Below, one piece after another: positions 22,061 to 24,378 of a stretch of 64,000 nucleotides of DNA. A program made the position numbers. The DNA comes from Octopus sinensis (lineage: Eukaryota): the NCBI RefSeq assembly GCF_006345805.1, contig NC_042999.1, forward strand, positions 114,824,001 through 114,888,000. Direction: 5' to 3'. Every line of letters begins with the position of its first letter. Position 1 is the stretch's first letter.

Positions 22061-24332
22061 TAAAGAATTTTTATTTTTAGATATAAATGATGTACTCAAG
22101 TGTAGTTATGTTTTTAGCTTGTGCTTTTTCCATGATCATACGTGAGTATTTTATTTATATCCCATCGAAATTTCTACTGAAGAAGGAATATATCTTTTTT
22201 ATATGATTAAGTCCGAAATTGATTCAATATAGAGATAACGAAATTTAAATTTTCTAAAGGTTAGTTGCCCGTTTTCAGTTTCGATTTTCCTGTAACAAGC
22301 GGATTATAAGTGGATAAAACAGTGTATTTGGCTTTAGAATAACCCTCTTTAGCCCTTATTATTATATGTATATTTCAACCGTAACGGTTTTTTTAAATAT
22401 ACTGCCCACGCTTCCTGATGAATTCCTTGGCTGTAGAGTAAGGGACTTCATCCTTATTGCTTAGTAGTAAACTCGATGCTTGCTACAGGAGGACTGGTAA
22501 CCATTACATTTGTAGCGCGGCGAAAGGTCTGGACGTTGTTTTCTGAGGCTGACCAAAGAATTTTTATTTTTAGATATAAATGATGTACTCAAGTGTAGTT
22601 ATGTTTTTAGCTTGTGCTTTTTCCATGATCATACGTGAGTATTTTATTTATATCCCATCGAAATTCTACTGAAGAAGGAATATATCTTTTTTATATATTA
22701 AGTCCGAAATTGATTCAATATAGAGATAACGAAATTTAAATTTTCTAAAGGTTAGTTGCCCGTTTTCAGTTTCGATTTTCCTGTAACAAGCGGATTATAA
22801 GTGGATAAAACAGTGTATTTGGCTTTAGAATAACCCTCTTTAGCCCTTAATTATATGATGTATATTGCAACCGTAACGGTTTTTTTAAATATACTGCCCA
22901 CGCTTCCTGATGAATTCCTTGGCTGTAGAGTAAGGGACTTCATCCTATATTGCTTAGTAGTAAACTCGATGCTTGCTACAGGAGGACTGGTAACCATTAC
23001 AATTTGTAGCGGCGAAAGGTCTGGACGTTGTTTTCTGAGGCTGACCAAAGAATTTTTATTTTTAGATATAAATGATGTACTCAGGGTAGTTATGTTTTTA
23101 GCTTGTGCTTTTTCCATGATCATACGTGAGTATTTTATTTATATCCCATCGAATTTCTACTGAAGAAGGAATATATCTTTTTTATATGATTAAGTCCGAA
23201 ATTGATTCAATATAGAGATAACGAAATTTAAATTTTCTAAAGGTTAGTTGCCCGTTTTCAGTTTCGATTTTCCTGTAACAAGCGGATTATAAGTGGATAA
23301 AACAGTGTATTGGCTTTAGAATAACCCTCTTAGCCCTTAATTATATGATGTATATTGCAACCGTAACGGTTTTTTTAAATATACTGCCCACGCTTCCTGA
23401 TGAATTCCTTGGCTGTAGAGTAAGGGACTTCATCCTATATTGCTTAGTAGTAAACTCGATGCTTGCTACAGGAGGACTGGTAACCATTACAATTTGTAGC
23501 GGCGACGAAAGGTCTGGACGTTGTTTTCTGAGGCTGACCAAAGAATTTTTATTTTTAGATATAAATGATGTACTCAAGTGTAGTTATGTTTTTAGCTTGT
23601 GCTTTTTCCATGATCATACGTGAGTATTTTATTTATATCCCATCGAAATTTCTACTGAAGAAGGAATATATCTTTTTTATATGATTAAGTCCGAAATTGA
23701 TTCAATATAGAGATAACGAAATTTAAATTTTCTAAAGGTTAGTTGCCCGTTTTCAGTTTCGATTTTCCTGTAACAAGCGGATTATAAGTGGATAAAACAG
23801 TGTATTTGGCTTTAGAATAACCCTCTTTAGCCCTTAATTATATGATGTATATTGCAACCGTAACGGTTTTTTTAAATATACTGCCCACGCTTCCTGATGA
23901 ATTCCTTGGCTGTAGAGTAAGGGACTTCATCCTATATTGCTTAGTAGTAAACTCGATGCTTGCTACAGGAGGACTGGTAACCATTACAATTTGTAGCGGC
24001 GAAAGGTCTGGACGTTGTTTTCTGAGGCTGACCAAAGAATTTTTTTTTTAGATATAAATGATGTACTCAAGTGTAGTTATGTTTTTAGCTTGTGCTTTTT
24101 CCATGATCATACGTGAGTATTTTATTTTATCCCATCGAAATTTCTACTGAAGAAGGAATATATCTTTTTTATATGATTAAGTCCGAAATTGATTCAATAT
24201 AGAGAAACGAAATTTAAATTTTCTAAAGGTTAGTTGCCCGTTTTCAGTTTCGATTTTCCTGTAACAAGCGGATTATAAGTGGATAAAACAGTGTATTTGG
24301 CTTTAGAAAACCCTCTTTAGCCCTTAATTATA

Positions 24333-24378
<46 letters not shown>

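What the first reader, a model, noticed from the sequence alone, without database searches (positions are those of the whole stretch)
22062..24336. Candidate cephalopod retrozyme: ~492-bp tandem array with one hammerhead ribozyme per unit
Seen: 4.6 near-identical head-to-tail units. Each has a complete type I hammerhead (stem I, CUGAAGA, one extra A, GGA/UCC stem II, GAAA, near-palindromic stem III, AUA triplet). Predicted cleavage after 22229, 22720, 23212, 23707 and 24199 would release four 491-495-nt monomers. The array starts and ends at different phases of the unit and sits inside the (TA)n tract of a SINE. Known: Penelope-like elements carry minimal type I HHRs; metazoan non-LTR retrozymes are tandem HHR repeats processed to circular RNAs; palindromic stem III HHRs can act as dimers; an extra nucleotide after A9 is tolerated in natural HHRs. 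Inference: this is a recently integrated multimeric cDNA copied from a circular, self-cleaving non-coding RNA by PLE machinery. The unit is at or above the upper size range I recall for animal retrozymes.
Basis: partly seen in the sequence, partly recalled or inferred. Interest (0 to 1): 0.88.

Follow-up and report, generated by a model that had tools for sequence, protein, structure and literature searches.

The report
Hammerhead-ribozyme tandem repeat (retrozyme-type) insertion
A 2.3-kb run of 4.6 copies of a non-coding 492-base unit, each carrying a self-cleaving hammerhead ribozyme motif, sits inside an older mobile element; it looks like a new example of an already described kind of RNA-based genomic parasite, not a new kind.

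Summary
TRF finds a 492-bp tandem array at 22062-24342, 4.6 copies, 98% matches. Each unit has a complete type I hammerhead core, identical in 5 of 5 copies. A descriptor as strict as the candidate gave 0 hits in 20,000 unit shuffles and 0 in 150 window shuffles. The array splits a SINE at its internal (TA)n tract; an intact paralog lies at 28172-27848.

It meets the published sequence criteria for a metazoan non-LTR retrozyme. The "extra A" after A9, the G10.1-C11.1 pair and the near-palindromic helix III are listed hallmarks of Penelope-like-element hammerheads. New here: an 82-nt hairpin next to each ribozyme that is more stable on the + strand (z = -8.3).

Against:
- Rfam's hammerhead models never match.
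- Helix III is unstable as a monomer.
- No second copy and no PLE gene was found in the window.
- Cleavage, circular RNA, cDNA origin and the cephalopod source are all untested.

The 492-bp size is not unusual: published ranges are 51-972 bp, and pDo500 units are 463-505 bp. Verdict: a new member of a known kind, of moderate interest.

The parts
22062..24342 (+). Tandem array, 4.6 units of about 492 bp (3' limit ambiguous, 24336-24342); non-coding, 34% GC
   Evidence: TRF; blastn of the unit against the window; ORFs inside are at most 114 aa and differ in length between units; GC
22165..22241 (+). Hammerhead 1 (type I): C3 at 22177, predicted cleavage after 22229
   Evidence: Descriptor hit with helix I of 7 bp; alignment; flanks
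22658..22732 (+). Hammerhead 2: C3 at 22669, predicted cleavage after 22720; helix I of 5 bp (one T missing) and one G missing in loop 2
23149..23224 (+). Hammerhead 3: C3 at 23160, predicted cleavage after 23212
23643..23719 (+). Hammerhead 4: C3 at 23655, predicted cleavage after 23707. Parts: outer helix I UCG/CGA, AA/AA internal loop, helix I AUUUCUA/UAGAGAU, core CUGAAGA+A, helix II GGA/UCC, GAA, helix III AUUG-AUU-CAAU, A17
   Evidence: Parsed; descriptor; pair probabilities
24135..24210 (+). Hammerhead 5: C3 at 24147, predicted cleavage after 24199; helix I of 6 bp (one T missing in the 3' strand)
22080..22161 (+). Long hairpin, copy 1 (31 pairs, 5 of them G.U), ending a few bases before the hammerhead
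   Evidence: -30.9 kcal/mol
22573..22654 (+). Long hairpin, copy 2
   Evidence: -31.1 kcal/mol, z -7.7, 0 of 200 shuffles
23065..23145 (+). Long hairpin, copy 3, weakened by a private change
   Evidence: -28.6 kcal/mol, z -6.4
23558..23639 (+). Long hairpin, copy 4
   Evidence: + strand -31.1 kcal/mol, z -8.3; - strand -18.5 kcal/mol, z -5.1. Pair census
24051..24131 (+). Long hairpin, copy 5, weakened by a private deletion
   Evidence: -25.8 kcal/mol, z -6.5
22014..22061 (.). Left (TA)n tract of the target, followed by AGTAT at the junction
   Evidence: TRF; junction print-out
24337..24385 (.). Right (TA)n tract of the target; shares a TATAT microhomology with the unit at the junction
   Evidence: TRF; junction print-out
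21729..22003 (+). Left half of the interrupted SINE, including its (ACAT)n stretch at 21933-22003
   Evidence: blastn to paralogs at 27297-27488 (76%) and 28172-27977 (71%); TRF
24386..24470 (+). Right half of the interrupted SINE
   Evidence: blastn to 27932-27848, 86% over 85 nt; the intact paralog was read

Best explanation
This is a retrozyme-type element: a short tandem array of a non-coding unit of about 492 bp. The + strand transcript of each unit carries a Penelope-like-element (PLE) style type I hammerhead ribozyme and, a few bases upstream, a very stable hairpin of about 82 nt. The array is a younger insertion into the internal (TA)n tract of an older SINE.

Proposed mechanism, with shown and inferred steps marked:
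1. A source array elsewhere is transcribed into multimeric + strand RNA (inferred).
2. The hammerheads cut after A17 of the AUA triplet and release monomers of 491-495 nt. Helix III is too weak as a hairpin but is near-palindromic, so cutting probably needs two neighbouring ribozymes pairing through an extended helix III, or an assisting protein (inferred from computed energies and published precedent).
3. Monomers may be circularised by a host ligase (inferred by analogy only).
4. A PLE reverse transcriptase/GIY-YIG endonuclease nicks AT-rich DNA, here the (TA)n tract. The location is shown; the enzyme is inferred.
5. Reverse transcription starts at a TA-rich patch of the RNA. The microhomology at the right junction is shown.
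6. More than one unit is copied, either round a circle or along an unprocessed multimer. Different start and end phases are shown; the template form is open.
7. Any later growth by unequal crossing-over cannot be excluded.
For: - Array and unit sizes.
- Complete core in 5 of 5 units, and no other hit in 128 kb of both strands even with a relaxed descriptor.
- 0 of 20,000 unit shuffles and 0 sites in 150 window shuffles reach the motif's quality.
- Helices I and II appear in the free MFE fold of the 84-nt domain.
- Two helix III segments pair at -6.7 kcal/mol against 0.0 for the hairpin. Dimeric action of such type I motifs is in print.
- The + strand RNA is more structured than the - strand: linear z -3.48 against -1.94; circular z -2.53 (0 of 150) against -1.33 (14 of 150); hairpin -31.1 against -18.5 kcal/mol, with 5 G.U pairs.
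- It meets the operational retrozyme definition of the 2026 preprint and the traits of the 2020 paper: low GC, tandem, non-coding.
- (TA)n covers only 2.6% of the window. (TA)n or AT-rich DNA is the stated preference of Naiad, Penelope and Poseidon endonucleases.
- An intact SINE paralog serves as an empty-site model.
- All 26 variable columns between units are private to one unit. Units are 97.4-98.6% alike, while the SINE halves are only 71-86% like their paralogs, so the insert is younger than its host.
Against: - No Rfam hammerhead family matches: not at gathering score on the whole window, not at E <= 10 on 21900-24500, not on one isolated copy.
- Nearest-neighbour folding does not favour the active fold. 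Helix III probability is 0.01 everywhere. Helix II is 0.27 in the domain and 0.08 in full-length RNA. Helix I is 0.25 in full-length RNA.
- In 2 of 3 fragment lengths tried, the MFE is a non-hammerhead fold, and the constrained hammerhead fold is 3.3 kcal/mol above the MFE.
- Published tests warn that the motif does not equal activity. Only 1 of 9 Xenopus retrozyme dimers cleaved in vitro. PLE minimal hammerheads cleave poorly. The Anolis PLE hammerhead needed protein and was dispensable for insertion.
- There is no second copy of the unit in 64 kb.
- No RT or GIY-YIG domain was found in the 30 of 51 ORFs of at least 120 aa that were scanned.
- The variable sites show no sparing of the hammerhead as a whole: 4 of 26 variable columns fall in about 15% of the unit.
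- Private changes weaken rather than compensate the hairpin.
- The excess of 5 G.U over 1 A.C is not significant (p = 0.11).
- Unit u1 holds 14 of the 26 variable columns, which a single-template copy does not predict.
- Naiads, the PLE clade for which a (TA)n preference is printed, lack canonical hammerheads and are said to be only remnants in cephalopods.
Confidence: 0.65

Rival explanations
1. The element family is the same, but the array was built at the DNA level. One route is a fragment of a PLE terminal repeat (pLTR) or of a hammerhead satellite, at least 1.6 units long, landing in the (TA)n tract and then growing by unequal crossing-over. Another is extrachromosomal circular DNA from a satellite captured at a break in the fragile (TA)n tract by microhomology-mediated end joining. 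In this reading the hammerhead is an inherited and possibly inactive relic, and no circular RNA is involved.
For: - The 2026 preprint's own discussion proposes local amplification and unequal crossing-over for retrozyme arrays.
- 4.63 units is what n rounds of unequal exchange on a 1.63-unit founder would give (arithmetic).
- Junction microhomology (TATAT) and a short filler (AGTAT) are also typical of end joining.
- The ribozyme fold is predicted weak.
- Most tested animal retrozyme dimers did not cleave.
- Hammerhead cleavage was dispensable for PLE insertion in vitro.
Against: - A founder longer than one unit is still needed.
- The + strand bias of structure and the intact core in 5 of 5 units suggest a recently functional RNA.
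- All 26 differences are private, with no variant shared by neighbouring units as stepwise duplication would often leave. With so few differences this is weak.
Confidence: 0.25
2. This is an ordinary minisatellite whose unit happens to contain a hammerhead-like string, with no ribozyme ancestry.
For: - Rfam finds no hammerhead.
- Helix III is marginal.
- The unit is AT-rich, and the core is made of short A/G-rich words.
- The relaxed descriptor hits 0.18 sites per shuffled window (27 sites in 150 shuffles).
Against: - 0 of 20,000 unit shuffles and 0 of 150 window shuffles reach the observed quality.
- The relaxed rate per unit is only 55 of 20,000.
- The real window outside the array has 0 relaxed hits.
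- The motif also carries PLE-specific extras not required by my descriptor.
- It sits in exactly the genomic setting (tandem, one per unit, low GC) where such ribozymes are known.
Confidence: 0.04
3. The copy number, or the array itself, is an assembly artefact, for example a collapsed or expanded repeat from noisy long reads.
For: 16 of the 26 variable columns are single-base or short indels, mostly in homopolymer runs, the error type of long reads. Unit u1 carries 14 of the 26.
Against: - Both ends join the two halves of one SINE in the right order and orientation.
- The units are in register throughout.
- An artefact would change the number of units, not the existence of a unit with a hammerhead inserted in the SINE.
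Confidence: 0.06

Closest known systems
Metazoan non-LTR retrozymes (PMC7229834, 2020; bioRxiv 10.64898/2026.07.22.740005, 2026)
   Same: - A tandem repeat of a few hundred bp with one type I hammerhead per unit.
- Low GC (34% here against <45% in print) and no coding capacity.
[quoted passage not shown]
- A helix III that implies dimeric action, as in axolotl.
- A proposed dependence on PLEs.
- Unit length inside the printed 51-972 bp range.
   Different: - The unit is larger than the ~170-400 nt of the 2020 paper.
- Loop 2 is long (23-24 nt between GGA and UCC).
- The ribozyme carries the PLE-type inserted nucleotide.
- A strand-biased 82-nt hairpin lies next to the ribozyme; I did not see one described in the passages read.
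- The words cephalopod, octopus and squid occur 0 times in the 2020 paper, and cephalopod and mollus- 0 times in the 2026 preprint.
- Expression and circularity are untested here.
Minimal or variant hammerheads in the pLTRs of Penelope-like elements (PMC4209133, 2014)
   Same: [quoted passage not shown]
- The G10.1-C11.1 pair.
- A small palindromic helix III.
- A poorly defined loop 1.
- Expected low activity as a monomer.
   Different: - Here there is no RT/endonuclease ORF between the ribozymes, which lie 492 bp apart rather than about 3 kb.
- Helix I is longer (5-7 bp against 4-5 bp).
- Helix II is 3 bp plus an internal loop plus about 5 bp, not a continuous 7-8 bp.
- A real 4-bp helix III is present.
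pDo500 satellite of Dolichopoda cave crickets (PMC2837043), and newt satellite 2 and Schistosoma Sm-alpha (named in PMC6155905)
   Same: - A repeat unit of about 500 bp (pDo500: 463-505 bp) with one hammerhead.
- Multimeric transcripts processed to monomers.
- Both single and double-hammerhead modes proposed.
   Different: - Those are large satellite families (about 5% of a cricket genome) conserved across species.
- Here only one 4.6-unit array is visible, as a discrete insertion in a SINE.
- No sequence comparison with those families was possible.
Plant LTR retrozymes and viroid-like circular RNAs
   Same: A hammerhead-bounded non-coding RNA of a few hundred nt, proposed to circularise and be copied.
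   Different: The plant elements have type III hammerheads, LTRs, a primer-binding site and polypurine tract, GC >55% and a dimeric arrangement. None of these applies here.

Membership tests
Hammerhead ribozyme, type I | Conserved core: C3 U4 G5 A6 N7 G8 A9, G12 A13 A14, the A15.1-U16.1 pair, and H17 not G | tested here: met
   All present and invariant in 5 of 5 copies, with one inserted A after A9.
Hammerhead ribozyme, type I | Three helices around the core, with helix I open and helices II and III closed | tested here: inconclusive
   Helix I has 5-7 bp plus 3 outer bp. Helix II has 3 bp plus an inner helix. Helix III has 4 bp and a 3-nt loop but 0.0 kcal/mol as a hairpin and probability 0.01.
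Hammerhead ribozyme, type I | Match to the Rfam hammerhead covariance models | tested here: not met
   No hammerhead family was listed at gathering score, at E <= 10 on 2.6 kb, or on 121 nt. The long loop 2, the inserted A and the short helix III may explain the miss. That explanation is my inference and was not tested.
Hammerhead ribozyme, type I | Site-specific self-cleavage | not testable with these tools
   Needs in vitro transcription of monomer and dimer constructs.
Hammerhead ribozyme, type I | Tertiary contacts between loop 1 (or its bulge) and loop 2 | not testable with these tools
   An AA/AA internal loop in helix I and an asymmetric internal loop in helix II exist, but no tool tests their interaction.
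PLE-type hammerhead (PMC4209133) | [quoted passage not shown] | tested here: met
   An A in 5 of 5 copies; the criterion was read.
PLE-type hammerhead (PMC4209133) | A conserved G10.1-C11.1 pair | tested here: met
   GGA/UCC.
PLE-type hammerhead (PMC4209133) | Palindromic positions 15.2-16.2 and loop 3, allowing a dimeric extended helix III | tested here: met
   AUUGAUUCAAU is palindromic except for the central U. The duplex of two copies is -6.7 kcal/mol. A full double hammerhead could not be scored.
PLE-type hammerhead (PMC4209133) | Lies in the pLTR of an element with an RT/GIY-YIG ORF | tested here: not met
   There is no ORF over 114 aa in the array. No RT or GIY-YIG domain was found in 30 of 51 window ORFs of at least 120 aa. 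Homology of the unit to a PLE pLTR elsewhere in the genome is not testable here.
Metazoan non-LTR retrozyme | A tandem repeat with complete type I hammerheads in at least two consecutive units (definition read) | tested here: met
   Five consecutive hammerheads. The preprint's own rnabob descriptor was not available, so my descriptor stands in for it.
Metazoan non-LTR retrozyme | Hammerhead MFE below -5 kcal/mol | tested here: met
   -8.5 kcal/mol (67 nt) to -11.7 kcal/mol (84 nt). The 67-nt MFE is not the hammerhead fold.
Metazoan non-LTR retrozyme | Unit of a few hundred bp, low GC, non-coding | tested here: met
   Units of 491-495 bp, 34% GC, and no conserved ORF. Printed ranges are 150-450 bp and <45% GC and 51-972 bp.
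Metazoan non-LTR retrozyme | Dispersed multi-copy family in the genome | not testable with these tools
   There is no second copy in the 64-kb window, and no metazoan collection is open. Prokaryote genomes gave 0 exact hits; plasmids and phages gave no match.
Metazoan non-LTR retrozyme | Expressed as linear and circular RNA of unit length | not testable with these tools
   No transcriptome is available. The predicted circular fold is 63-66% paired, z -2.53.
Metazoan non-LTR retrozyme | Co-occurrence with autonomous PLEs in the same genome | not testable with these tools
   None was seen in the window. PMC8557442 mentions Naiad families in cephalopods, said to be remnants only.

The most novel reading that the evidence does not exclude
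The locus is a fresh, nearly undecayed product of rolling-circle reverse transcription of a circular RNA of about 492 nt by a TA-targeting Penelope-like enzyme, in a lineage (cephalopods, if the source is one) where no retrozyme has been reported. The priming microhomology and a paralogous empty site are both preserved. The strand-biased 82-nt hairpin beside the ribozyme would then be the element's recognition or priming module for the enzyme, or alternatively a small-RNA precursor. That would give the first sequence-level handle on how animal retrozymes are recognised and integrated.
Probability: 0.2. Interest if true: 0.6.

Novelty: new member of a known kind. Interest (0 to 1): 0.35.

Why it matters
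Animal retrozymes are known, but how they integrate is still only a proposal.

What makes this locus useful is how clean it is:
- The array is young (units 97.4-98.6% alike).
- Both junctions are readable.
- The target is a (TA)n tract inside a recognisable SINE.
- An intact paralog 4 kb away serves as an empty-site model.
- The ribozyme carries PLE hallmarks.

If genome-wide copies confirm the pattern, three things would follow:
1. It would tie retrozyme integration to AT-targeting PLE endonucleases in an invertebrate, which the 2026 preprint says it did not examine.
2. It would add a mollusc class to the host range. No report was found in four literature searches.
3. It would nominate the adjacent hairpin as a candidate cis element.

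If not, it is one more hammerhead-bearing minisatellite.

Tried and rejected
Rfam. Three searches found no hammerhead family: gathering score on the whole window, E <= 10 on 21900-24500, and E <= 10 on one copy. The 18 and 6 sub-threshold hits (miRNA, snoRNA and similar families) lie on microsatellites or are far below their cut-offs, and I reject them as artefacts.

Dimer co-fold. Co-folding two 84-nt domains returned only the trivial fully swapped duplex (-30.4 kcal/mol against 2 x -11.7). A double hammerhead is not a nested structure, so the tool cannot score it. The test is uninformative either way.

Other copies. blastn of the unit against the window with word size 7 and E <= 10 gave nothing beyond the array.

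Coding potential and PLE genes. No ORF in the window exceeds 264 aa. Pfam on 30 of 51 ORFs of at least 120 aa gave two sub-cut-off hits only: Amastin at 19.5 bits against a cut-off of 27.2, and DUF3402 at 15.9 against 25. The 21 ORFs left out were 7 in the trinucleotide-repeat block at 25.0-27.1 kb and 14 alternative-frame ORFs overlapping scanned ones. ORFs under 120 aa were not scanned, so short PLE fragments could be missed.

tRNA-like promoter. ARAGORN found 0 genes in the window.

Elsewhere. An exact 24-mer in prokaryote genomes gave 0 hits. blastn of the unit against plasmids and phages gave no match. No metazoan sequence collection was open, so genome-wide copy number, PLE linkage, orthologous empty sites and the taxon all stayed unchecked.

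Taxon. A 40-nt stretch of the SINE matched no paper. My impression that the SINE resembles the common octopus SINE is recall only.

Selection on the ribozyme. 4 of 26 variable columns fall in the hammerhead and 0 in the core. There are too few differences for a test.

Not used. Structure prediction, complex prediction and the protein atlas were not used, because no protein is involved.

Supplements are closed. The following may bear on host range, the integration model and cephalopod PLEs, and I did not see them: supplementary figures S6 and S9 of PMC7229834, supplementary tables 1-6 of the 2026 preprint, and supplementary file S1 of PMC8557442.

Papers. De la Pena and Flores 2001 (the inserted nucleotide) was seen only as a citation inside PMC4209133.

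Other operator notes. I did not take the window for human sequence, and it holds no N.
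Full report
THE OBSERVATION

Tandem Repeats Finder reports one long-period array at 22062-24342: period 492, 4.6 copies, 98% matches, score 4389. It is the only long-period, high-identity repeat in the 64 kb.

blastn of one unit against the window recovers four full units (97.4-100% identical) and partial units of 168 nt at the 5' end and 143 nt at the 3' end. 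It finds no other copy. The window holds no N.

THE RIBOZYME MOTIF

Read on the + strand, each unit contains these parts in order:
- an outer helix I, UCG/CGA;
- an AA/AA internal loop;
- helix I, AUUUCUA/UAGAGAU (7, 5, 7, 7 and 6 contiguous pairs in the five copies);
- the core CUGAAGA, followed by one extra A;
- helix II, GGA/UCC, enclosing 23-24 nt that can form a further small helix;
- GAA;
- helix III, A-UUG/AUU/CAA-U;
- A17, the last letter of the AUA triplet.

The core is invariant in 5 of 5 copies.

My type I descriptor hits only these five places on the two strands of the window, even in a relaxed form. With thresholds equal to the candidate's quality it hits 0 of 20,000 dinucleotide shuffles of the unit and 0 sites in 150 shuffles of the window. 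The relaxed form hits 55 of 20,000 unit shuffles and 27 sites in 150 windows. The strict thresholds were chosen after seeing the motif. Even so, the relaxed per-unit rate of 0.3% makes chance an unlikely explanation.

WHAT SPEAKS AGAINST A GOOD RIBOZYME

Rfam does not list any hammerhead family at gathering score, at E <= 10 on 2.6 kb, or on a single 121-nt copy.

In free folding:
- The 84-nt domain forms helices I and II but not III (-11.7 kcal/mol). The hammerhead-constrained fold is -8.4 kcal/mol.
- The 75-nt and 67-nt fragments prefer other folds.
- Pair probabilities are 0.8-0.9 for helix I in the domain but 0.25 in a 653-nt precursor and in the circular monomer. Helix II is 0.27 and 0.08. 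Helix III is 0.01 throughout.
- Helix III alone is 0.0 kcal/mol as a hairpin, whereas two copies pair at -6.7 kcal/mol.

A co-fold could not score a true double hammerhead.

WHAT THE LITERATURE ADDS

PMC4209133 (passages) lists these conserved traits of Penelope-like-element (PLE) hammerheads:
- the G10.1-C11.1 pair;
- palindromic positions 15.2-16.2 and loop 3;
- a long helix II;
- low activity in vitro, read as dimeric action.

PMC6155905 (passages) and PMC7229834 (passages) describe dimeric action of type I motifs with a weak helix III in newt, avocado sunblotch viroid and axolotl.

PMC7229834 defines metazoan non-LTR retrozymes as tandem repeats of 150-450 bp with low GC, expressed as circular RNAs of about 170-400 nt. 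It proposes target-primed or otherwise primed copying of circles by PLE or LINE enzymes.

The 2026 preprint 10.64898/2026.07.22.740005 (abstract, methods, results part 1 and discussion) contributes four points:
- an operational definition: a TRF array, a hammerhead in at least two consecutive units, and MFE below -5 kcal/mol;
- Xenopus retrozymes related to PLE pLTRs;
- only 1 of 9 dimers cleaving in vitro.

PMC2837043 (passages) documents the pDo500 hammerhead satellite, with units of 463-505 bp. The 492-bp unit is therefore not at an extreme.

THE UNIT AS AN RNA

- The linear + strand monomer folds at -122.9 kcal/mol, z -3.48, with 0 of 100 shuffles as good. The - strand gives z -1.94, 2 of 100.
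- As a circle, the + strand is 63-66% paired, z -2.53 (0 of 150). The - strand is 51-52% paired, z -1.33 (14 of 150).
Each ends a few bases before the hammerhead.
- This hairpin folds at -31.1 kcal/mol, z -8.3 on the + strand, against -18.5 kcal/mol, z -5.1 on the - strand.
- It has 31 pairs, 5 of them G.U, against one A.C mismatch. That fits an RNA read from the + strand but is not significant alone (p = 0.11).
- Private changes in two copies weaken it rather than compensate.

The unit is 34% GC. It has no ORF above 114 aa, and ORF lengths are not kept between units. It has no tRNA-like part.

THE INSERTION SITE

- The left flank (21729-21928) and right flank (24386-24470) match, at 71-86% identity, the two halves of a repeat present intact on the - strand at 28172-27848. 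There a (CA)n/(TA)n stretch of about 44 bp joins the halves. A further truncated copy lies at 27297-27530.
- The array therefore sits inside the SINE's own TA tract, with (TA)24 on the left and (TA)28 on the right.
- (TA)n tracts cover 2.6% of the window, so an unbiased insertion would rarely land in one.
- PMC8557442 (passages) states that (TA)n is often the preferred target of Naiad PLEs. The same paper says Naiads lack canonical hammerheads and are only remnants in cephalopods.
- PMC11167929 (whole main text) shows AT-rich cleavage by a Poseidon enzyme and cites the same for Penelope.
- The left junction reads (TA)n-AGTAT|AAAGAA. The right junction reads ...TTAATTATATGAT|ATATAT where the unit continues GTATAT, a microhomology of about 5 nt.
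- The array starts at unit position 328 and ends at 143, so the founder was longer than one unit.

AGE AND HISTORY

- There are 26 variable columns among the units, all private to one unit. 16 are indel columns and 10 are substitution columns.
- None falls in the catalytic core, and 4 fall in the wider hammerhead.
- Unit u1 (22230-22720) holds 14 of the 26.
- This fits units that were identical at birth, whether copied from one template or recently duplicated. It also fits long-read noise. The excess in u1 is unexplained.

INTERPRETATION

The best reading is a retrozyme-type element with a PLE-style hammerhead, inserted as more than one unit into an AT-rich target. The most likely route is a PLE-type reverse transcriptase/endonuclease acting on multimeric or circular + strand RNA (confidence about 0.65 for the class, lower for each mechanistic step).

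PMC11167929 found that unprocessed RNA was the dominant substrate, and that cleavage needed protein and was not needed for insertion. A linear multimer is therefore as plausible a template as a circle.

The main rival keeps the family but builds the array by DNA-level events: unequal crossing-over on a 1.6-unit founder, or capture of extrachromosomal circular DNA at a fragile TA tract. The preprint's own discussion favours local amplification. Chance and assembly artefact are minor rivals.

WHAT STAYED UNCHECKED

- No metazoan sequence collection, transcriptome or read set was available. Genome-wide copy number, PLE linkage, expression, circularity, cleavage and the cephalopod origin are therefore open.
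- Searches of prokaryote genomes, plasmids and phages were negative, as expected.
- Four literature searches found no report of hammerheads or retrozymes in cephalopods: 'hammerhead ribozyme' + octopus; Penelope-like, cephalopod and hammerhead; retrozyme + cephalopod; 'hammerhead ribozyme' + squid. This covers only the held library and no supplements.

VERDICT

This is a new member of a known kind. Interest is 0.35, mostly for the clean junctions, the PLE hallmarks and the adjacent hairpin.

Noticed in passing
window 22230-22720 (unit u1): This unit carries 14 of the 26 variable columns of the array. They cluster in two patches, near unit positions 127-145 and 280-286, while the other units carry 2-5 each. 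This could be assembly noise, gene conversion or an older unit. It is unexplained.
   Followed up: partly
window 27297-27530 (+), 27800-28172 (-), 28206-28244 (+): There are three more pieces of the same SINE family. One is truncated exactly at its (TA)n tract and followed by unrelated sequence. One is intact. One is a short inverted fragment abutting the intact copy across a (TA)n tract. The TA tracts of this SINE seem to be recurrent breakpoints or insertion points.
   Followed up: partly
window 33922-34289: A two-copy tandem repeat, period 184, 90% matches, whose unit looks like another SINE-type repeat. My descriptor found no hammerhead there.
   Followed up: no
window 25201-26970: A dense block of trinucleotide and related microsatellites, including (AGA)n, (TGG)n, (GTA)n and (CCA)133. 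It produces long artefactual ORFs of up to 264 aa.
   Followed up: no
window 21933-22066 and 24318-24461: Sub-threshold Rfam matches to miRNA, snoRNA and a pestivirus 3' UTR family all lie on (ACAT)n or (TA)n tracts and are composition artefacts.
   Followed up: yes
whole window: There are 46 (TA)n tracts of at least 12 bp, 1,665 bp or 2.6% of the window, and many other microsatellites. No tRNA gene was found. Among the 30 ORFs scanned, no Pfam family reached its cut-off. The region looks intergenic or intronic and repeat-rich.
   Followed up: partly
window 23213-23239 (5' end of each monomer): The 3' strand of helix I (UAGAGA) can instead pair with a nearby UUUCUA about 20 nt downstream, as seen in the MFE of the linear monomer. 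This alternative hairpin could compete with the hammerhead fold after cleavage. I did not evaluate it further.
   Followed up: no
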